Below are positions 44,051-54,351 of a stretch of 64,000 nt of DNA, in pieces (position 1 is the stretch's first letter; each line of letters opens with the position of its first letter). The notes beneath the pieces are model-generated. The model was not told the DNA's origin. It saw only the letters and a list, made by a program, of their open reading frames with translations, and searched no databases. Source of the DNA: Polyangiaceae bacterium (GTDB taxonomy: Bacteria; Myxococcota_A; Polyangia; Polyangiales; Polyangiaceae); the NCBI GenBank assembly GCA_035548415.1, contig DASZTA010000046.1:27480-91479 (forward strand), written 5' to 3'. A program made the translations under genes and the position numbers.

Positions 44051-45142
44051 ATGAACCCGATCGTTCGGCTCATCGGTATTGCGGCGCTGTCGTTCGTAGC
44101 GACGGCTTGTAACAAGTCTGAGGCCCCCAAGCCGGCAGCGGAAGAAAAGCCCGCACCGGCGGCATCGGCAGCGGCAGCTCCATCCGCGGCCGCTGCAGCC
44201 GCTCCCTCGGCCGCGCCCACGCCCGGCTCTGGCAGCGGACTCAAAATCGCCTACAGCGATTGGCCTGGTTGGGTCGCGTGGGAAGTCGCCATCCAAAAGG
44301 GGTGGTTCAAAGAGGCCGGCGTCGACGTCGAGTTCAAGTGGTTCGACTACGTGCCGTCGATGGAAGCCTTCTCGGCGGGCAAGGTCGACGCCGTGTGCGT
44401 GACCAACGGCGACGCGCTCGTTACCGGTGCCACCGGCGGTAAGAGCGTCTCGATCGTGGTCAACGACTACAGCGACGGCAACGACATGATTGTGGCCAAG
44501 CCAGGCATCGCCAGCATGGCTCAGCTCAAGGGCAAAACAATCGGCGTCGAGGTAGGCTTCGTCGACCACCTGCTGCTCTTGCACGCCCTCAAGGCCTCGA
44601 ACCTGAAAGAGAGCGACGTGAAGCTCAAGAACGTCAAGACCGACGAGACGCCGCAGGCGCTCAAGTCGGGTGACGTTGACGCGATCGCGGCCTGGCAGCC
44701 CAGCAGCGGCTCCGCGCTCAAAGAGGTGCCGGGCAGCAAGGCCATCTTCACCAGCCACGACGTGCCGGGCCTGATTTACGACATGCTGGCCGTGAACCCG
44801 AAGAGCCTCGCGGAGCACCGCGCGGACTGGGTCAAGGTCGTCAAGGTTTGGGATCGCGTCGCCAAGTTCATCAACGACGAAAAGAATCTGGACGAGGCTG
44901 CCAAGATCATGAGCGCTCGCGTCGGTCTCACGCCCGACCAATACAAGGCGATCATGAAGGGCACGCACATCATGACGCTCGAGGAGGGCAAGAAGCACTG
45001 GGCCAAAGCCGACGGCCTGACCTCGATCTACGGCTCGAACAAGATCGTCGACGAGTTCAACGTCAAGAACACGGTGTACAAGGCGCCCGAAAAGGTCGAC
45101 GAGTACCTGGATCCGTCCGTCACGGAGGAAGCCCTCAAGTGA
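44051..45142 (+). CDS. ABC transporter substrate-binding lipoprotein (NMT1/SsuA-like, urea carboxylase-region type; probable guanidine importer)
   Basis: Lipobox ATAC; [32 protein letters not shown]; context of the carboxylase cluster. Confidence 0.9.
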
Positions 45143-46332
45143 CGCACGACGGACCAGCAGCAGGCGCCGCCTCGACCGCGGGCGACGAAGCGCCCAAGGG
45201 CAATCCGCGACGACGGCTGCTGGCCGTGCGTTCGCCTCTGCCACCGCGTATCAGCGTGGTGGCAGGGGTGCTGGCGTTCGTGCTCCCGCTCTTGGCGTGG
45301 TGCATCGTGAGCTACGTACCGTTCGTGTGGCACCCGCTCGTGCACGTGCGCGACGCGGGTGACGTGAGCGTGCCCGGCGAATACAGCTACGTCGCCGCCG
45401 ACCAGCTCATCGAGCTGGAGGTGTTCGACAAGCGCAATCAGGAGCTCGGCCGTGCGCACGCCAAGCTGGTGACGGGCGAGCGCGCCAACCCGGTGTTCTT
45501 GCCGGCTCCGCACCAGGTGGCGCGCGCGTTCTACACGGCGTTCACCACGCCGCCGTTGCGCCGCGGTGACTACTGGTTGCACGAGAGCCTGTGGCAGAGC
45601 TGCCAGGTCATCTTCTGGGGCTTTGCGTACTCGGCGCTGTTCGGGCTGCCGCTCGGCATCTTGTGCGGCACCTTTTCGTTGTTTTCGCGGCTATCCGAGC
45701 CGTTCGTCGACTTCGTACGCTACATGCCGGCGCCCGTATTCGGCGCGCTGGCGGTCGCGGTGCTGGGCCTGGGCAACGAGCCCAAGATCACCATCATCTT
45801 CATCGGTACCTTCTTTCAGATGGTGCTGATCGTGGCCAACACCACGCGCTCGGTCGATGGCGCGCTGCTGCAGGCCGCGCAAACGCTGGGCGCCAATCGC
45901 CTGCAGTTGATCAAGAACGTGGTCATCCCCGCCGCGCTGCCCAACCTGTACCGCGACATGCGCATCTTGATCGGTTGGGCCTGGACGTACCTGGTCGTGG
46001 CCGAGCTGATCGGCGAAAAGTCCGGCATCAGCGCGTTCCTCTACCAGGAGCAGCGCTACCGCCATTTCGACAACGTGTACGCAGGCATCGTGATGATCGG
46101 CATCATCGGCCTGCTCACCGATCAGGCCCTCAGCTTTGCGGGGCAGTTCCTGTTTCCTTGGGAGACCGGCAACAACGCACTCTTTCGTGTGTTCGCACAG
46201 CTTAAGGAAGCGCTCTCGTCGCGCGGAGACAAGCTGCCGGAAGCCGACCCGATCAACGATTCACAAGTGCTGGAGCGCATGCCCATCGCCCCGATCGCCG
46301 AAGCACCGGAGGAGGAAGCCCATGTCGGTTGA
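45139..46332 (+). CDS. ABC transporter permease (SsuC/TauC-like)
   Basis: GTG overlapping the upstream TGA; [15 protein letters not shown] (EAA loop), [14 protein letters not shown]. Confidence 0.93.
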
Positions 46333-47212
46333 CGATCGCCTGGAGTTACCGAGCTACCTGCACCACAGCGAAGAAGTGTCGGCGCGCTTCGCCGAGATCC
46401 GCAAGCGCCCGACCGTGATGCGCTTGTCCGCAGTTTCGCGCCAGTTCGAAGGTGCCCAAGGCCCGGTGCTGGCGCTTTCGAAAATCAGCTTCGACGTGCG
46501 GCAGCGTGAGTTCATCAGCGTCATCGGCCCTTCCGGCTGCGGCAAGTCCACGTTGATCCGCATCGTGGCAGGGCTCGAGACGTGCACGGGTGGCTCGATC
46601 ACCATCGACGGCAAAGAGGTGGGCGAGCCGGGGGCGGACCGGGGCATGGTGTTCCAGGGCTACACGCTCTTCCCGTGGCTCAACGTGAAGCAGAACGTGA
46701 TGTTCGGCCTCAAGATGAAGGGCATGCCCAAAGCCAAGGCCGAGCGCATGGCCATGGATTGGCTCGATCTCGTGGGCCTCACCAAGTTTGCCACGCATTA
46801 CCCGGCGCAGCTCTCGGGCGGCATGAAGCAGCGCGTGGCGATTGCGCGCGCGCTCGCCAACGAGCCGCGCATCTTGTTGATGGACGAGCCGTTCGGCGCG
46901 CTGGACGCTCAAACGCGCGGCAGCATGCAGGCGCATTTGCTCAAGATTTGGGAGACGGTCGACGTCACCATCCTGTTCATCACGCACGATCTGGACGAAG
47001 CCATCTACTTGTCGGACCGCATCGTGGTGCTGGGCGCGCACCCCGGCCGCATCCTCGAAATCATCGACGTGCCGGTGGAACGGCCGCGCAATACGGACCA
47101 ATTCCTATCCGGTCACTTTCTCGCGACCAAAAAGCGGCTCGAGCAATTGATTCACCATCGCGAAACCTCCCCGAAACCTGACTCGGGGAAACTAGGCATC
47201 GTCGCGGCCTGA
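46322..47212 (+). CDS. ABC transporter ATP-binding protein (TauB/NrtD-like)
   Basis: [42 protein letters not shown]. Confidence 0.96.
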
Positions 47213-47235
47213 AAGCCGCGGCGCTTCGCAAGCCT

Positions 47236-47287
47236 GAGCCGGGACGACCCGGTTCGCGACGGGCCACAATGCCGGGACGACCCGGCA
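47236..47287 (+). ncRNA. Guanidine-II (mini-ykkC) riboswitch aptamer
   Basis: Two GC-rich hairpins each capped by an ACGA loop: GAGCCGGG-ACGA-CCCGGTTC (47236-47255) and TGCCGGG-ACGA-CCCGGCA (47270-47287), 14-nt linker, upstream of cgdA-like genes. This is the defining architecture of the class. Confidence 0.9.
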
Positions 47288-47374
47288 CTGATTGTTCCTT
47301 GCAGGGTCCGGCCGGCACCGGGCGCGAGCGTTGCTCTACGTCGACCTTCCCTGCGAGGAGAAGGCACGACGAAG

Positions 47375-48103
47375 ATGAACGAGTCTCAGCTGATTTTGGA
47401 GGAAGCCCTGCGCGGCGGCCAGATGTGGTCGCGCATCTTGCGGCGCGGGCAAACACTGCGGCTGACCGATGTCGAAGGCGGGGCGGCGGTAGCGGCGCTC
47501 TTCTACAACGCCGAAGATCCGAGCGAGCGATACAACATGCCCGACACGCTCAAGGCGCAGCACATCGCACGCCTCACGAAGGGCTTCGTGCTGTATTCGG
47601 ACATGGGCCGTGTGCTCTGTTCGATCACAGAGGACAGCGTCGGCTGGCACGACACCATCACCGGGCACGGCACCGCTGCGCACGGCCGCGCCAAGTTCGG
47701 CGAAGGGACGTACCAAAAGCTACGCAACGATTGGTACCGCAACACGCGCGACAATTTCCTGGTCGAGCTGGGCAAGTACGACCTGGGTAAGCGCGACATC
47801 GTCGCCAACGTGAACTTTTTCGTGAAGGTCGTGGCGAACGAGCAGGGTGCGCTGTCGTTCGTGCCCGGGCATTCGCGGCCCGGCGGTTTCGTGGAGCTGC
47901 GCGCCGAGATGCACACGCTGGTGGTGCTCTCGAATACGCCCCACCCGCTCGATCCGAGCACCGTGTACGAGCAGAAGCCCGTCGCGCTCACGATTCGCGG
48001 CGGCGCTCCGGCAGGCGCAAACGACGCTTGTCGTCTCTCACGCCCCGAAAACGCGCGCGGCTTCACGCTGACAGAGAGCTACTACGCCGGGAGGGCAAGC
48101 TGA
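47375..48103 (+). CDS. cgdA: Carboxyguanidine deiminase subunit A (urea carboxylase-associated protein, DUF1989)
   Basis: [50 protein letters not shown]. Confidence 0.88.
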
Positions 48104-48747
48104 TGGCGCTCTCGGAGAGCAAGCTCGATCCGGCCAAGGCCGTCTTCGACCAGGTGGTACTGGCGGGGGACGGCTTCACGCATGTCGTCGAGCGCGGGCA
48201 GATCTTTCGTATCGTGGATCTGGAAGGGAACCAGGCCGCCGATACGTTGTTCTACGACGCGCACGACCCCAGCAACCGCTATAGCGCGGTCGACACGGTG
48301 CGCGAGCAAGGCAACATCTACCTTTCCACGGGTACCAAGCTGATGTCGCTCGATGGCGACGTGCTGATGACGATCGTGGCCGATACCTGCGGTCGCCACG
48401 ACACGCTCGGCGGCGCCTGCGCGGCCGAGTCGAATCAGGTCCGCTACGCGATCGAGAAGAAGTACATGCACGCCTGCCGCGATACGTTCTTGTTGCAGTG
48501 CGCGTGTCATACGCCCAACTTGAGCAAGCGCGACATCACCGCCAACGTCAACTTCTTCATGAACGTGCCGGTGACGCCCGAAGGCAAGCTCACGTTCGAA
48601 GACGGCGTCTCAGGCCCCGGCCGCTACGTAGAAATGCGCGCCGAACGCGATGTTCGCGTCCTCATCTCCAACTGCCCGCAGCTCAACAACCCCTGCAACG
48701 GCTACAACCCAACGCCCGTCCGCGTTCTCATCTGGGACGCCGAATGA
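48103..48747 (+). CDS. cgdB: Carboxyguanidine deiminase subunit B (urea carboxylase-associated protein, DUF1989)
   Basis: ATG overlaps the cgdA TGA; [52 protein letters not shown]. Confidence 0.9.
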
Positions 48748-48845
48748 CGAGCCTTCGCTTGCCTGACAACCAGATGGCTCCCCGCCTTTCTGTGAAGACG
48801 GCGAGCGCAGCGAGCGCGAATCAGCAGAACCTAACAGTCACGAAT

Positions 48846-48984
48846 GAACACGAAGAATCCGGAAGCCCGAGGGCCCGGGCCAATCTTGGAGGATCAGGAT
48901 TGAGCCCCTGGTTTGCCAACAACACTGAACCGGTGATGTCTACGAAGCGGTTCGGGTCCTCTGGCTTCCTGATTCTTCGCGTTC
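48846..48984. ncRNA. Unassigned structured element (31-bp closing stem, two inner hairpins) between cgdB and the carboxylase
   Basis: 48846-48876 pairs with 48954-48984 (27 WC pairs, 1 GU, 3 mismatches); inner hairpins at 48877-48907 and 48927-48953. Confidence 0.6.
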
Positions 48985-48997
48985 CCCAGCGCCAATC

Positions 48998-51900
48998 ATG
49001 TTCAAAAGCGTATTGATCGCTAACCGCGGCGAGATCGCGTGCCGCGTCATCCGTACCTTGAAGCGCCTCGGTGTGCGCTCGGTCGCCGTTTATTCGGAGG
49101 CCGATCGTCACGCCAGGCACGTGCTCGATGCCGATGTCGCGGTGTGCGTCGGCCCGGCCGCCGCCAAGCAGAGCTACCTGAACGCGGAAGCCGTGCTCGA
49201 GGCGGCGCGCAGCACCGGCGCCGAAGCCGTGCATCCGGGCTACGGCTTCTTGAGCGAAAATACGCGCTTTGCCGAAGCCGCCGAGGCCGCCGGCATCGCC
49301 TTCATTGGCCCGACTTCCGAGCAAATTTCCAAGTTTGGCTTGAAGCATACGGCGCGTGCCCTGGCCAAGGCGGCGGGTGTGCCGCTCCTCCCAGGGAGTG
49401 AGCTGCTCGCCAACCTCGAAGAAGCGCAAAGCGAGGCTACGCGCATCGGCTTCCCGGTCATGCTCAAGAGCTCGGCGGGTGGCGGCGGCATCGGTATGTC
49501 GCTCTGCCGCAGCGCGCAGGAGCTAGCGGCGGCCTACGAAACGGTACGCCGCTTGAGCCAAAACAATTTCGGCGACGCCAGCGTCTACCTCGAGCGCTTC
49601 GTGGAGCGCGCGCGCCACATCGAGGTACAGCTGTTCGGTGACGGTCGCGGTGACGTCATCGCGCTGGGCGAGCGCGACTGCTCGGCGCAGCGCCGCAACC
49701 AAAAGGTAATCGAAGAGACGCCGGCGCCGAACCTGGAGCCGGGGCTCCGTGCAGCGTTGCACGAAGCCGCGGTCGTGCTGGGTAGGAGCGTCGGCTACCG
49801 CTCGGCCGGCACCGTCGAGTTCGTGTTCGACGCCGAGCGGCGCGAATTTTACTTTCTCGAGGTGAACACGCGCCTGCAGGTCGAGCATGGCGTGACCGAA
49901 GAGGTGATGGGCGTCGACTTGGTCGAGTGGATGATCCGCACGGCAGCCGGTGAGCCCCCGGACTTGTCGGCATTTCGCGGCCGAGTGCCGCGCGGTCACT
50001 CGATCCAGGTGCGCGTTTACGCGGAGGATCCGGCGCGCGACTTCAAGCCCAGCTCGGGGTTGCTCACGGAGGTGAAGCTACCCAACGCTCGCGTCGACAG
50101 TTGGATCGAGCGCGGCACGGAGGTCTCACCCTTTTACGATCCGCTGCTCGCCAAGATCATCGTGCACGGCGAGAATCGCGAGCGCGCGCTCGAAAAGCTC
50201 AAGGGGGCGATCGCCGAGACTCGCATCGGCGGCATCGAGACCAACTTGAGCTACCTCGCGCAGTTGGCGCGCGATCCCGTGTTCGTGGCCGGCGAGACCA
50301 TCACGGCACACCTCAAGAGCGTCGCCTTCTCGACGGCCAGCATCGAGGTCGTGGTCCCCGGTACGTTCAGCATCGTGGTGGAGTACCCGGGCCGGCTCGG
50401 CTACTGGGACGTGGGCATTCCGCCTTCGGGGCCGATGGATCCGCTCGGGCTACGGCTCGCCAATCGCGTCGTCGGTAACGCGGAGGGCGCGGCAGGTATC
50501 GAGCTCACCATGTCCGGTCCCACGCTGCGTTTCGCGACGGACGCGCTGGTGGCGCTGACGGGCGCCGACATGGGCGCCACGCTCGACGACGTGCCGGTCC
50601 CGCAATTTGCGCCGATTTCCATCAAATCCGGCCAAATTCTCAAGCTGGGTGCCTCGGGCGGCTCCGGTGCGCGCGCGTATCTGGCGGTGCGCGGCGGGCT
50701 CGACGTGCCCGAATACTTGGGCAGCCGCACCACGTTCACGCTCGGCGGCTTCGGTGGTCATGGCGGGCGCGTGCTGCGTCGTGGCGACATCTTGCATGTC
50801 GGTGGTCACGCCGCGCCGGACGACCCGCGCGCGCTGCCGCCCGAGCTCTGGCCGAGCTTGGGCCGCCGCTGGCAGCTGGGGGTGCTTTACGGCCCGCACG
50901 GTGCTCCCGACTTCTTCACGCCGCGCGACATCGAGATGCTCTTCTCCACGGATTGGGAGGTGCACTACAACTCGAACCGCACCGGCGTACGCCTGATCGG
51001 ACCCAAACCCGAGTGGGCGCGACCGGACGGCGGCGAAGCCGGCCTGCATCCGTCGAACATTCACGATGTCGCGTATGCCATCGGCGCCATCGACTTCACG
51101 GGTGACATGCCGATCTTACTCGGTCCAGACGGCCCCAGCCTGGGCGGCTTCGTGTGCCCCGGCGTCGTCGCCACCTCCGAGCTGTGGAAGATGGGGCAGC
51201 TGCGTCCCGGCGATAGCGTGCGCTTCGTGCCGCTCGCTCCGGAGCAAGCGGCTGCTCTCCAATTGGCGCAAAATCGGCTGGTTTCGCAGCGTACGGCAAG
51301 CGCACCGGCGGAGCCGCTGGTGGCGACCGTGCCGAGCGGCGCGGTGGCGGCGGAGCTACCGGAAAGCTCCGAGCGCGTGCGCGTCGTTTACCGTCGTGCC
51401 GGCGATCGCTACTTGCTCGTGGAGTACGGGCCGCTGGTGCTCGACTTGCGGCTTCGCTTTCGTGTGCACTCGCTGATGACGTGGCTCAAGCAGAGCAAGC
51501 TGCCCGGCCTCGTCGACCTCACGCCGGGCGTGCGCTCGCTGCAGATCCATTTCGATCCGCACCGAGTCAGCGCGCAGCACCTGCTCTCGGCGTTGCGCAC
51601 CGCCGAGCAAGAGCTACCCGGCATCGACGACGTGGAGGTGCCGACCCGCACGGTGCACCTGCCGCTTTCGTGGGACGATCCCCAGACGCGTCTGGCGATT
51701 CAAAAATACACGACGTCGGTGCGGCCCGACGCGCCGTGGGCCCCGAGCAACATCGAGTTCATTCGTCGCATCAACGGCCTCGACTCGATTGAAGACGTGT
51801 ACAAGACCGTTTTCGGTGCCAGCTACCTGGTGCTGGGTCTGGGCGACGTGTACCTGGGGGCTCCAGTGGCCACGCCGGTCGACCCGCGCCACCGCCTCGT

Positions 51901-52609
51901 CACCACCAAGTACAACCCCGCGCGCACGTGGACGCCGGAAAACGCCGTCGGCATCGGCGGCGCGTACTTGTGCATCTACGGTATGGAGGGGCCGGGCGGC
52001 TATCAGTTCGTCGGCCGCACGCTGCAGGTCTACAACCGCTTTCGTTCGACCGAAAAATTCGTGGCCGGCACGCCCTGGCTGCTGCGCTTCTTCGATCAAA
52101 TACGGTTCTACCCCGTTTCCGCCGAAGAGCTCCTGGAGCAGCGCGAGGCCTTCCCCTACGGCAAGGTCGACATCCGCATCGACGAAGGCACCTTCAAGCT
52201 GCGCGACTACGAAGCTTTCTTGAAGGAGAACCAGGCGTCGATCCAGAGCTTCAAGTCGCAACAACAAGCGGCCTTCGAGGCCGAGCGCCAGCGCTGGATC
52301 GAAAGTGGCCAGCTCAGCTTCAGCAGCGAAGCGCAAGGCAGCGCCGGCGGCGCGACCGATGCGGCGGATCTGCCGGCAGGCGCCGAAGCCGTCGAGTCAC
52401 ACGTGCCCGGCAGCGTTTGGAAGCTCGAGGTCAAGGCGGGCGAGCGCGTCAAACGCGGCCAAACCCTGCTGGTCGTCGAGTCGATGAAGATGGAAATCGC
52501 GGTCGAAGCGCCGAGCGACGGGGTGGTGATCGAGCTGCTCGTCGGCGAGGGCAGGGCGGTTTCGCCCGGGCAACGCGTGGCGGTGCTCAAGAGCGAGGCG
52601 CGCGCGTGA
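48998..52609 (+). CDS. uca: Urea/guanidine carboxylase (biotin-dependent), guanidine-type
   Basis: BC domain ([35 protein letters not shown]), CT domain ([22 protein letters not shown]), biotinyl motif ESMKM. Confidence 0.97.
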
Positions 52610-54351
52610 CGGACGGCGGACGCCGCTTCTTGCCGCTAGGCGAGCTCGTGGCCGGAAACCGCAGCGGTCAGACCGCGCCGAGGCAGGAGCTGCTCGAGTG
52701 CGTTCGCCGCATTCAGGCCGAGGGTGAGCGGCCGATCTGGATTTCGACCTTCAACGAAGAGCAGGTGCTGGCACAGCTCGAGGCGGCGGACGAAGCGGGG
52801 CCGCTTTACGGCGTACCCTTCGCCGTGAAGGACAACATCGACGTCGCCGGGTTGCCCACCACGGCGGCGTGCCCGCAGTTCAGCTACATGCCGGCGCGCC
52901 ATGCCACGGTGGTCGAGCGTCTGGTGCAAGCCGGCGCCATCGTGATCGGCAAGACCAACCTGGATCAATTTGCGACCGGTCTGGTCGGCACGCGCACGCC
53001 CTACGGCGCCTGCAGCTCCGTATTCGACGCGCGCTACATTTCGGGCGGTTCCAGCTCGGGTTCGGCGGTGGCCGTCGCCAAAGGGCAGGTGGCGTTCTCG
53101 CTCGGCACCGACACGGCCGGTTCCGGGCGAATTCCGGCGGCCTTCAACGCGCTGTGCGGCGTGAAGCCGACGCGCGGCGTGCTCTCGAACCGCGGTGTGG
53201 TACCGGCGTGCCGCTCGCTCGACTGCGTCTCGATTTTCAGCAGCAGCCTGGCGGACGCCGAGCTCCTGTTCGAGGTGTGCGCCGGCTTCGACGCCGACGA
53301 TCCGTTTTCGCGACCGCGCGAGGCCGTTACCGGCTTTGGTGACGCGCGCCTGCGCCTGGCCGCACCGCGTGCCGAAGACCTCGAGTTCTTCGGCGACGAC
53401 GAGAGCGCCGAGCTGTTCCTGGCCGCGCTCGAGCGCGCCAAAGGCCTGGGCGCCGAGATCAGCCGCTTCGATTTGTCGCCGTTTCGGGAGACGGCGGCGC
53501 TGCTCTACGCCGGACCTTGGGTCGCCGAGCGCCTGGCGACCGCTGCGGCCTTGCTGGAGCGCAACGCCGAGGCGGTGCACCCGGTGGTGCGCGGCATCAT
53601 CGAAGGTGGCCGCAAGTACAGCGCGCTCGAGACCTTTCGTTCGCTTTATCACCTGGGCGAGCTCCGGCGCCGCGCCGACCAGATACTCGCGAGCTGCGAC
53701 GCGTTGCTGTTGCCCACCGCGCCCACGCATTACACGATCGAAGAAGTGCTGCAGAACCCGCTGGAGCTCAATGCGCGCCTCGGCACTTACACCAACTTCG
53801 TGAACCTGCTCGATTTGTGCGCGCTGGCGGTGCCGGCGGGATTCAAGCCATCGGGCTTGCCGTTCGGCGTTACCTTCATGGCGCCGGCTTTTCACGACGC
53901 TCGGCTGCTCGAGCTGGGGCGAGCTTTCACGGGTGAGCAGGCGCAGCGCCGGCAAGCAGCACCCGGCTGCGTCTGGTTGGCGGTGGCCGGTGCGCACCTG
54001 TCGGGGCAACCACTCAATCCAGAGCTCACCTCGCGGGGGGCTCGTCGCATTCGCACCACCAAAACCGCTCCCGAGTACCGGCTCTTCGCGCTCGACACCG
54101 TGCCGCCCAAGCCCGGCCTCGTGCACACGCCCGGCGAAGCCGCGCACGCCATCGAGGTCGAAGTCTGGGAGCTTACCGCGAGCGCCTTCGGCGACTTCGT
54201 GGCGCACATCCCCGCGCCGATGACGATCGGCATGACGAAGCTGGCGGACGGCTCGTTGATCAAGGGCTTCGCCTGCGAGCCTCACGCGCTGGAAGGCGCG
54301 CGCGAGATCAGCCAATTCGGCAGCTGGCGTGCGTTTCGCGCGAGCGCATAA
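52606..54351 (+). CDS. atzF: Allophanate hydrolase
   Basis: GTG overlapping the uca TGA; amidase signature [35 protein letters not shown]; C-terminal [10 protein letters not shown] domain. Confidence 0.96.

What the first reader, a model, noticed from the sequence alone, without database searches (positions are those of the whole stretch)
47236..47374. Guanidine-II riboswitch with an unusually long, separate expression platform
Seen: canonical twin ACGA hairpins, but the cgdA start is 87 nt downstream. In between, TTCCTTGCAGGG (47295-47306) can form a 12-bp helix with CCCTGCGAGGAG (47349-47360), sequestering the GAGGAG Shine-Dalgarno-like tract. Established: guanidine-II aptamers usually sit close to the RBS and act through loop-loop kissing. 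Inference: ligand binding is relayed through this extra helix, or the aptamer controls processing or termination within the polycistronic mRNA.
Basis: partly seen in the sequence, partly recalled or inferred. Interest (0 to 1): 0.65.

Follow-up and report, generated by a model that had tools for sequence, protein, structure and literature searches.

The report
Guanidine-II riboswitch with inserted stem-loop
A genuine guanidine-sensing RNA switch sits inside a soil myxobacterium's guanidine-breakdown operon, and it carries a conserved extra RNA hairpin of about 66 bases between the sensor and the ribosome-binding site, a lineage-specific variant of a known switch, not a new kind.

Summary
Rfam's Guanidine-II model hits 47236-47285 at 41.3 bits (cut-off 32). 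The cgdA start (ATG 47375) lies 87 nt after P2. The 12-bp pairing 47295-47306 / 47349-47360 is real: -22.2 kcal/mol, z = -3.9 against shuffles.

The spacer is a selected element. 23 relatives (Polyangiaceae genomes and soil metagenomes) keep it at 78-96 nt. Its lengths fall in all three frames, so it is non-coding. It is 79% identical, against 59% at four-fold codon sites. It is single-copy and matches no other Rfam family.

- A rival local fold (47339-43:47367-71 plus 47345-52:47356-64) covers that site and reaches the start codon. It is the predicted minimum in this sequence.
- The two folds lie within about ±5 kcal/mol in all 23 sequences.
- No conserved terminator exists.
- Secondary-structure modelling shows no ligand coupling.

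My best model is canonical guanidine-II logic. A helix between the 5' flank of P1 and the ribosome-binding site is pulled apart by loop-loop kissing.

This is a new variant of a known kind, of modest interest.

The parts
47201..47222 (+). Hairpin spanning the stop codon (TGA 47210-12) of the upstream ABC-transporter ATPase gene: GUCGCGGC / CUGAAA / GCCGCGGC
   Evidence: Sequence read. The stem is kept in relatives, with the non-coding 3' strand changing to match the coding 5' strand (alignment). Its role is unknown and it is not part of the switch proper.
47224..47235 (+). 5' tail and flank of P1: CUUCG (47224-28) and GCCU (47232-35). These are candidate P0b and P0a 5' strands. GCCU can pair either with GGGC 47261-64 in the linker (P1a) or with AGGC 47362-65 at the ribosome-binding site (P0a).
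   Evidence: GCCU is invariant in 23/23 sequences. GCCU:GGGC is paired in 23/23 and GCCU:AGGC in 21-23/23. The P1a pairing is also predicted in short-platform relatives. CUUCG:CGAAG is present in only 9/23, and the co-occurrence test gives p = 0.14.
47236..47255 (+). Guanidine-II aptamer hairpin P1 (8 bp, ACGA loop at 47244-47)
   Evidence: Rfam RF01068, 41.3 bits. 97% identity across relatives.
47256..47269 (+). P1-P2 linker, 14 nt, GCGACGGGCCACAA
   Evidence: Nearly invariant in class A (one change in one relative, L015).
47270..47287 (+). Guanidine-II aptamer hairpin P2 (7 bp, ACGA loop at 47277-80)
   Evidence: Rfam RF01068. Relatives show C-to-U and A-to-G changes that keep the pairs as G-U.
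47295..47306 (+). In my model it is the basal stem of the inserted hairpin P3.
   Evidence: Duplex of -22.2 kcal/mol, z = -3.9. Conserved in 23 relatives. Basal 6 bp paired in 19-23 of 23 sequences, with four pair types at the outermost pair.
47306..47348 (+). Interior of the inserted element. It folds either as a local hairpin (47306-11:47318-23) or as a long irregular stem: GG 47310-11:CC 47345-46, CGGC 47313-16:GUCG 47340-43, and GGGCGC 47320-25 pairing within 47330-36.
   Evidence: Folds. Three independent insertions in relatives (L003, L004, L184) fall at the apex and are self-complementary.
47339..47375 (+). Rival local sequestering structure: CGUCG 47339-43 pairs with CGACG 47367-71, and CCUUCCCU 47345-52 pairs with AGG 47356-58 plus GAAGG 47360-64. 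It extends to AGA 47373-75, which includes the A of the AUG.
Evidence: MFE of the window's own leader. RNAalifold consensus on the MAFFT alignment.
47349..47360 (+).
47361..47365 (+). Most likely Shine-Dalgarno core AAGG(C), 10 nt before the AUG
   Evidence: AAGGC is conserved in 20 of 23 relatives at 8-12 nt from the start. It is kept in L008, which lacks GGAG, and is duplicated in L167. The assignment rests on spacing rules for SD sequences (established knowledge) and is not experimental.
47375..48103 (+). cgdA-type gene (urea amidolyase-associated protein UAAP1, 242 aa). It is followed by the UAAP2 gene (48103-48747), the urea/guanidine carboxylase gene (48998-52609) and the allophanate hydrolase gene (52606-54351).
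   Evidence: NCBIfam TIGR03425 325 bits, TIGR03424 331 bits, TIGR02712 1879 bits, and allophanate hydrolase 811 bits.

Best explanation
This is a genuine guanidine-II (mini-ykkC) riboswitch. It sits in the 162-nt gap between the guanidine-importer ATPase gene and cgdA, and it most likely turns on translation of cgdA (and with it cgdB) when guanidine is present.

Compared with canonical members, a stem-loop of about 66 nt (P3, 47295-47360) has been inserted between P2 and the ribosome-binding site. Because the two ends of a hairpin lie side by side, P3 places the real Shine-Dalgarno core (AAGG 47361-64) and the pre-start tract right at the aptamer junction.

Proposed OFF state: GCCU (47232-35), directly 5' of P1, pairs with AGGC (47362-65). 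In this sequence CUUCG (47224-28) also pairs with CGAAG (47370-74). Together these form a P0-type helix that closes a four-way junction of P0, P1, P2 and P3 and hides the ribosome-binding site. The local hairpin 47339-47375 is a second, competing closed state.

Proposed ON state: guanidine makes the ACGA loops of P1 and P2 kiss head-to-head. That geometry is incompatible with the compact junction, so P0 opens and AAGG...AUG is freed.

Shown here: the aptamer, the gene context, the conservation and selection of the spacer, and the existence of both folds. Inferred: the ON direction, the P0 pairing as the switch, and P3 being constitutive.
For: Aptamer and gene context:
- RF01068 scores 41.3 bits.
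- The flanking genes are an NitT/TauT-type ABC importer, UAAP1, UAAP2, a carboxylase and an allophanate hydrolase.

The spacer is under selection:
- 23 relatives were found.
- Spacer identity is 0.79 against 0.59 at four-fold sites.
- Lengths of 78-96 nt fall in all frames.
- It is single-copy in the genome.

- It is present in all 23 relatives.
- The basal pairs are 19-23/23 paired, with GC, CG, GU and UG at the outermost pair.
- L168 carries matched deletions in both strands.

P0-type pairing:
- GCCU:AGGC is paired in 21-23/23, and the end of P3 abuts it with a 1-nt gap.
- This junction fold is the MFE in about 10 relatives.
- Tail-to-pre-start pairing exceeds shuffled-tail controls in 7 sequences.
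- L015 changed its site to GAAGCAU, which is complementary to its own tail AUGCUUC.
- Two other Polyangiaceae lineages with spacers of about 69 nt fold the same way. A linker or 5'-flank helix on the SD and pre-start encloses P2 plus an inserted hairpin (L044, L049).

Published precedent: in the P. aeruginosa guanidine-II switch, P0a/P0b helices are the expression platform, and kissing separates their strands (PMC10351892, PMC5558903).
Against: - In the window's own sequence the junction fold is predicted 5.2 kcal/mol above the aptamer-formed rival fold (-77.4 against -82.6).
- GCCU is invariant and also pairs with linker GGGC in every relative, including short-platform ones. No covariation separates P0a from that alternative.
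- The CUUCG:CGAAG extension is present in only 9/23 (p = 0.14).
- Native versus swapped partner strands differ by under 1 kcal/mol.
- With 7 nt between P2 and P3, 'spatial separation' by kissing is less compelling than when the SD directly follows P2 (inference).
- No experimental or transcript data were available.
Confidence: 0.4

Rival explanations
1. Bistable helix-exchange platform. The local hairpin (47339-47375) is the true sequestor of the ribosome-binding site (OFF). The reader's helix is an anti-sequestor: by pairing CAGGG 47302-06 with CCCUG 47349-53 it ties up the sequestor strand and leaves AAGG...AUG single-stranded (ON). Guanidine shifts the balance by fixing P1/P2 and so releasing spacer segments (47304-47323) that otherwise pair with P1 strands or with the tail.
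For: - The two folds exclude each other, and both sets of strands are conserved.
- Their energy gap is -0.5 +/- 3.0 kcal/mol over 23 sequences. It is 1.1 kcal/mol for the isolated spacer of the window.
- In the window's MFE, P1 is replaced by pairings with 47304-08, 47312-16 and 47319-23.
- Folds lacking P1 or P2 lie only 2.4-2.8 kcal/mol above aptamer-formed ensembles.
Against:
- Predicted SD accessibility does not rise when the aptamer is formed: 0.26 against 0.33-0.34.
- Aptamer-spacer complementarity is no better than shuffles in most relatives: z about 0 to -0.9 in 4 of 7 tested.
- A gap within +/-5 kcal/mol between two folds may be ordinary for GC-rich RNA.
Confidence: 0.25
2. The 12-bp helix is itself the OFF-state sequestor of the ribosome-binding site (GAGGAG), and guanidine binding is relayed to open it.
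For: - The helix is strong and beyond chance.
- It is conserved.
- Its 5' strand is CU-rich like an anti-SD, and GGAG is paired with UUCC in most relatives.
Against: - GAGGAG is 14 nt from the AUG. The conserved AAGG at 10 nt is left free by the helix.
- L008 has lost GGAG yet keeps the basal stem.
- No sequence in or near the aptamer competes for either strand better than chance.
- Aptamer state has no predicted effect on the helix.
Confidence: 0.15
3. The aptamer and the spacer are functionally separate. The spacer hairpin would be an RNase processing or stability element, a protein-binding site or a translation attenuator of the polycistronic mRNA. The aptamer would act through Rho or mRNA decay, or only weakly.
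For:
- It also carries a hairpin over the ATPase stop codon.
- No secondary-structure coupling is predicted.
- Close relatives manage with a short platform at the same position (L005, L020).
Against: - The spacer occurs only together with this aptamer and is single-copy.
- Its 3' end overlaps the ribosome-binding site.
- The guanidine-II class is described as exclusively translational (PMC10351892).
- No terminator is conserved.
Confidence: 0.12

Closest known systems
Canonical guanidine-II (mini-ykkC) riboswitches, e.g. Pseudomonas aeruginosa and E. coli sugE/gdx leaders (Rfam RF01068)
   Same: - Two hairpins with ACGA loops on GGG/CCC stems.
- A 14-nt linker.
- A score above the family cut-off.
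- A guanidine-related downstream gene.
- Possible P0-type pairing of the 5' flank with the ribosome-binding site, as in the P. aeruginosa model (PMC5558903, PMC10351892).
   Different: The ribosome-binding site lies about 73 nt after P2, whereas 90% of members lie within 33 nt (PMC1950547). A conserved structured insertion of about 66 nt occupies the gap. The host is a myxobacterium, while the class is mostly proteobacterial.
Guanidine-II switches inside guanidine-carboxylase operons of Raoultella, Klebsiella and Erwinia
   Same: An intercistronic guanidine-II element within an importer and degradation operon for guanidine assimilation (PMC12186494, PMC5558903).
   Different: In those operons guanidine-I heads the operon and guanidine-II precedes the carboxylase gene. 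Here the genome has no guanidine-I, and guanidine-II precedes cgdA, between the importer and the deiminase genes.
Short-platform guanidine-II leaders at the same ATPase-cgdA junction in the same genus (L005/L012/L035/L039, L020/L064)
   Same: Same flanking genes, same P1 extension (GCCY:GGGC), and the same aptamer.
   Different: The start codon is only about 15-25 nt after P2 and there is no inserted hairpin. The window's long form is therefore a lineage-specific elaboration.
Sequestor / anti-sequestor translational riboswitch platforms such as the E. coli thiM TPP riboswitch (from my own knowledge, not tested here)
   Same: Two mutually exclusive helices, one of which hides the ribosome-binding site.
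   Different: In those switches one strand of the exchange is part of the aptamer. No such overlap could be shown here.

Membership tests
Guanidine-II riboswitch (RF01068) | Two tandem hairpins, each capped by an ACGR tetraloop on a G-C-rich stem | tested here: met
   GGG-ACGA-CCC appears in both hairpins, and the covariance-model alignment spans positions 1-48 of 48.
Guanidine-II riboswitch (RF01068) | Score at or above the curated gathering threshold | tested here: met
   41.3 bits against 32, E = 8e-5 for the whole window.
Guanidine-II riboswitch (RF01068) | Linker of variable length that is long enough to allow loop-loop kissing | tested here: met
   The linker is 14 nt (47256-47269). The paper argues that even the shortest natural linkers can span the 50 Å between the hairpin ends (PMC5558903).
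Guanidine-II riboswitch (RF01068) | Cis position upstream of guanidine export or degradation genes | tested here: met
   UAAP1/UAAP2 (CgdAB type), a carboxylase and an allophanate hydrolase lie downstream, and an ABC importer lies upstream.
Guanidine-II riboswitch (RF01068) | Ribosome-binding site close to P2 (typical of the class, not strictly defining: 90% within 33 nt) | tested here: not met
   AAGG 47361-64 is 73 nt after P2 and GGAG 47357-60 is 69 nt after it. The figure for the class comes from PMC1950547.
Guanidine-II riboswitch (RF01068) | Binds guanidinium with ligand-induced P1-P2 kissing, and switches translation ON | not testable with these tools
   This needs in-line probing or SHAPE and reporter assays.
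P0-type expression platform (P. aeruginosa guanidine-II model) | A helix between the 5' tail, flank or linker and the SD / pre-start tract, opened when P1 and P2 kiss | tested here: inconclusive
   GCCU:AGGC is complementary in 21-23/23 and appears in the RNAalifold consensus of the register-corrected alignment. Both strands are invariant, however, GCCU also pairs with linker GGGC, and the fold is 5.2 kcal/mol above the rival in this sequence.
Intrinsic transcription terminator / attenuator | A G+C-rich hairpin followed by a U-tract, conserved among relatives | tested here: not met
   The only call is P2 followed by CTGATTGTTC. Relatives have GCTGAAAGTTCC or CACTGAAGTTCC at that place, and no U-tract follows the spacer hairpins.

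The most novel reading that the evidence does not exclude
The spacer is a true bistable relay. That would make this the first guanidine-II riboswitch to transduce by strand exchange through a separate expression platform, not by pulling a P0 helix apart. Alternatively, the inserted hairpin is a second input site (protein or ligand) that gates the same ribosome-binding site.
Probability: 0.22. Interest if true: 0.55.

Novelty: new variant of a known kind. Interest (0 to 1): 0.35.

Why it matters
Guanidine-II is the smallest guanidine riboswitch and a model for translational control by loop-loop kissing. How aptamer state reaches the ribosome-binding site is still debated, and it has been mapped in detail mainly in one P. 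aeruginosa example.

Polyangiaceae offer a natural series at one and the same gene junction. Platforms run from short ones (about 15-25 nt), through about 69 nt and 78-96 nt with an inserted hairpin, to about 265 nt. Comparing these could show how much distance and structure the kissing mechanism tolerates, and whether a helix-exchange relay has evolved.

It also shows that guanidine assimilation in cellulolytic soil myxobacteria is riboswitch-gated at the deiminase step without any guanidine-I element. The practical value is modest. It adds to the design rules for small synthetic guanidine switches.

Tried and rejected
1. The spacer as an 'anti-aptamer'. RNAduplex pairs the whole aptamer with the whole spacer at -47 to -60 kcal/mol. 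Dinucleotide shuffles give about -48 to -52, with z from -2.4 to +1.0. This is mostly a G+C/CCGG composition effect, so I rejected it as a general feature.

2. A repeat or mobile element. The 89-nt spacer has no second copy in the 9.3-Mb genome; the best other hit is 24 nt with E = 0.1.

3. A second known RNA family. A permissive Rfam scan of 47150-47450 finds only guanidine-II. All other hits are far below their cut-offs.

4. A leader peptide or N-terminal extension. In some relatives the cgdA frame is open back to the AUG in the linker. However, spacer lengths vary in all three frames, so the spacer is not coding.

5. An intrinsic terminator. None is conserved.

6. Co-evolution of partner strands, tested by swapping partners between sequences. 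Native versus swapped gives -15.8 against -14.9 kcal/mol for the helix and -9.9 against -9.35 for tail/pre-start. The test is uninformative because the strands are conserved.

7. Co-occurrence of CUUCG and CGAAG. Fisher p = 0.14.

8. A purely secondary-structure switch. Forcing or forbidding P1/P2 leaves predicted SD accessibility unchanged or slightly lower.

9. Transcript evidence.

10. The RNAalifold consensus depends on the alignment. The MAFFT alignment gives the local hairpin fold (-49.75). The covariation terms are about 0 in both, so comparative data cannot decide between them.

Full report
**What is there**

The window's only Rfam hit above threshold is Guanidine-II (RF01068) at 47236-47285 on the + strand. 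It scores 41.3 bits against a cut-off of 32 and covers model positions 1-48 of 48.
- P1 is GAGCCGGG-ACGA-CCCGGUUC (47236-55).
- The linker is 14 nt (47256-69).
- P2 is UGCCGGG-ACGA-CCCGGCA (47270-87).

Upstream lie three genes of an NitT/TauT-type ABC importer:
- a binding protein (44051-45142);
- a permease (to 46332);
- an ATPase (46325-47212).

Downstream lie:
- a UAAP1/CgdA-type gene (47375-48103, TIGR03425 at 325 bits);
- a UAAP2/CgdB-type gene (48103-48747);
- a urea/guanidine carboxylase gene (48998-52609, 1879 bits);
- an allophanate hydrolase gene (52606-54351, 811 bits).

The gene before the importer is on the other strand. The aptamer therefore lies inside a co-oriented importer-plus-degradation cluster, 23 nt after the ATPase stop codon.

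The titles of related contigs place the organism in Polyangiaceae, Myxococcota. The 9.3-Mb genome has no guanidine-I element. It has one further guanidine-II copy on another contig.

**Checking the observation**

ATG 47375 is the first in-frame start, and the equivalent ATG is conserved in all relatives. The gap between P2 and the start is 87 nt, as stated.

The two 12-mers are at exactly the stated coordinates and form 12 contiguous pairs, 2 of them G-U. The duplex energy is -22.2 kcal/mol, against -11.6 +/- 2.7 for shuffled partners (z = -3.9; 3 of 2000). The fold energy of the spacer alone is unremarkable (z = -1.2).

**Relatives**

A scan of 60 related genomes found guanidine-II in 22 genomes, all within the window's own genus. 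One metagenome pattern scan added more.

Twenty-four leaders share the window's architecture, which I call 'class A': ATPase gene, aptamer, long spacer, cgdA. One of them, L011, is truncated, so 23 were used.

The spacer looks like a selected non-coding element:
- It is 78-96 nt long, with lengths in all three frames, so it does not code on either strand.
- Among nine genomes, four-fold degenerate sites of the flanking genes are 59% identical. The aptamer is 97% identical, the spacer 79% and the 5' tail 72%.
- It is single-copy in the genome.
- It matches no other Rfam family even at permissive thresholds.

Other members of the same genus carry a guanidine-II aptamer at the same gene junction with different platforms. 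Some have the start codon only about 15-25 nt after P2 (L005, L012, L020). Others have a leader of about 265 nt (L006, L007). The long class-A platform is therefore a lineage-specific elaboration.

[quoted passage not shown] The distance here is unusual for the class, but long platforms are common among Polyangiaceae cgdA leaders.

**Structure of the spacer**

Two mutually exclusive folds compete.

It closes a long irregular stem-loop made of GG 47310-11:CC 47345-46, CGGC 47313-16:GUCG 47340-43, and GGGCGC 47320-25 pairing within 47330-36.
- The helix is kept in every relative at -13 to -22 kcal/mol.
- On a register-corrected alignment the six basal pairs are paired in 19-23 of 23 sequences.
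- The outermost basal pair shows CG, GC, GU and UG, plus four mismatches.
- The upper UUCC:GGAG part is paired in 18-21 of 23.
- L168 has matched deletions in both strands that keep an 8-bp helix.

*Fold Y* has three parts:
- a local hairpin, 47306-11:47318-23;
- CGUCG 47339-43 paired with CGACG 47367-71;
- CCUUCCCU 47345-52 paired with AGG 47356-58 and GAAGG 47360-64.

Fold Y runs on to the A of the AUG.

The predictions do not separate the two:
- Y is the RNAalifold consensus on the MAFFT alignment.
- X is the MFE in about half of the relatives.
- Over 23 sequences the X-minus-Y gap is -0.5 +/- 3.0 kcal/mol.
- For the window's isolated spacer the gap is 1.1 kcal/mol.
- Covariation terms are near zero in both alignments, so comparative data cannot choose.

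**Where the ribosome binds**

GAGGAG (47355-60) ends 14 nt before the AUG. AAGG (47361-64) ends 10 nt before it.
- AAGGC is conserved in 20 of 23 leaders, at 8-12 nt from the start.
- L008 has lost GGAG but keeps AAAGG.
- L167 carries a tandem duplication of GAAGGCAC that restores the short spacing.

By the usual spacing rules (established knowledge), AAGG is the more likely Shine-Dalgarno core. Fold Y covers it entirely.

**How the aptamer could talk to the platform**

I found no nested secondary-structure coupling.
- Forcing P1 and P2 leaves the predicted accessibility of the ribosome-binding site unchanged.
- Forbidding P1 or P2 costs only 2.4-2.8 kcal/mol, and it slightly raises accessibility instead of lowering it.
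- A striking whole-aptamer / whole-spacer duplex is mostly a composition effect.

This fits what is published for the class. The hairpins are largely pre-formed, and ligand-induced head-to-head kissing pulls apart P0 helices formed by the tails, linker and SD region (PMC5558903, PMC10351892).

In class A, GCCU (47232-35), directly 5' of P1, is complementary to AGGC (47362-65). CUUCG (47224-28) is complementary to CGAAG (47370-74). Together with X this gives a four-way junction of P0, P1, P2 and P3.

Support for this junction fold:
- It is the MFE in roughly ten relatives.
- Its tail pairing exceeds shuffled-tail controls in seven.
- L015, whose site changed to GAAGCAU, pairs with its own tail AUGCUUC instead.
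- Two other Polyangiaceae lineages with spacers of about 69 nt and unrelated sequence fold the same way. A linker or 5'-flank helix on the SD and pre-start encloses P2 plus an inserted hairpin (L044, L049).

Weaknesses of the junction fold:
- GCCU is invariant and equally pairs with linker GGGC in every relative, including short-platform ones.
- CUUCG:CGAAG exists in only 9 of 23 (p = 0.14).
- In the window's sequence the junction fold lies 5.2 kcal/mol above Y.
- The 7-nt P2-P3 connector weakens a pure 'spatial separation' argument (my inference).

**Verdict on mechanism**

| Model | Probability |
|---|---|
| An independent spacer function (processing, stability or protein binding) | about 0.12 |

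Termination is not supported. The only terminator-like call is P2 plus a weak T-run that relatives lack.

**Comparison and novelty**

Membership of the guanidine-II family is met on every sequence-level criterion. Ligand binding and switching cannot be tested here.

The known enterobacterial arrangement puts guanidine-I before the importer and cgdAB, and guanidine-II before the carboxylase (PMC12186494). Here there is no guanidine-I, and guanidine-II precedes cgdA.

The extended, conserved and apparently bistable platform is a new variant of a known kind, not a new class. Interest is modest. Its main value is as a natural test of how far the kissing-loop mechanism can act, within a clade that offers short, medium and very long platforms at one junction.

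Noticed in passing
Own genome contig C20:453361-453408 (locus L002, 1501-1548): A second guanidine-II aptamer (37.7 bits) has a different conserved leader, found in at least 10 genomes of the genus. No guanidine gene follows. About 270 nt downstream lies a 75-aa basic ORF (L002 1821-2048), and then a 109-aa ORF with a similar C-terminus. The leader contains GGUCGU(C), which is complementary to the ACGAC loop/stem of the aptamer. It may be an orphan riboswitch or an sRNA-like element.
   Followed up: partly
L006, L007, L037 (same genus or Sorangium-like MAGs): At the same ATPase-cgdA junction the guanidine-II aptamer is followed by a leader of about 265 nt. That leader shares motifs (GCUUUCAACCG..., GGAAGU.UGCAACUCGUGAGCC) with the orphan 'class B' leader of L002. 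This suggests that one leader was copied to the other locus.
   Followed up: no
window 47201-47222: A conserved hairpin (GUCGCGGC / CUGAAA / GCCGCGGC) has the ATPase stop codon (47210-12) in its loop. In relatives the non-coding 3' strand changes to match the coding 5' strand.
   Followed up: partly
L167 (metagenome contig Ga0170475_105202158): A tandem duplication of the GAAGGCAC ribosome-binding tract sits just before the cgdA start (GGAGAAGGCACGACGAAGGCACCACUUAUG). The second copy restores the usual 8-nt spacing.
   Followed up: no
L011 (genome G022, contig C60): The class-A leader is intact up to CACGAC, but cgdA does not follow. The sequence diverges at the start codon and the contig ends 150 nt later. 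This is either a rearrangement or an assembly break.
   Followed up: no
window 47269-47790 (+) and relatives L016, L143, L148, L167, L188: An ATG in the P1-P2 linker (CACAAUGCC) opens a long frame. In five relatives it is in frame with cgdA, but in the window it is not. Spacer indels show that this frame is not conserved.
   Followed up: yes
window 48748-48997: A 250-nt gap lies between cgdB and the carboxylase gene. With it, the operon has at least three structured intercistronic RNAs.
   Followed up: no
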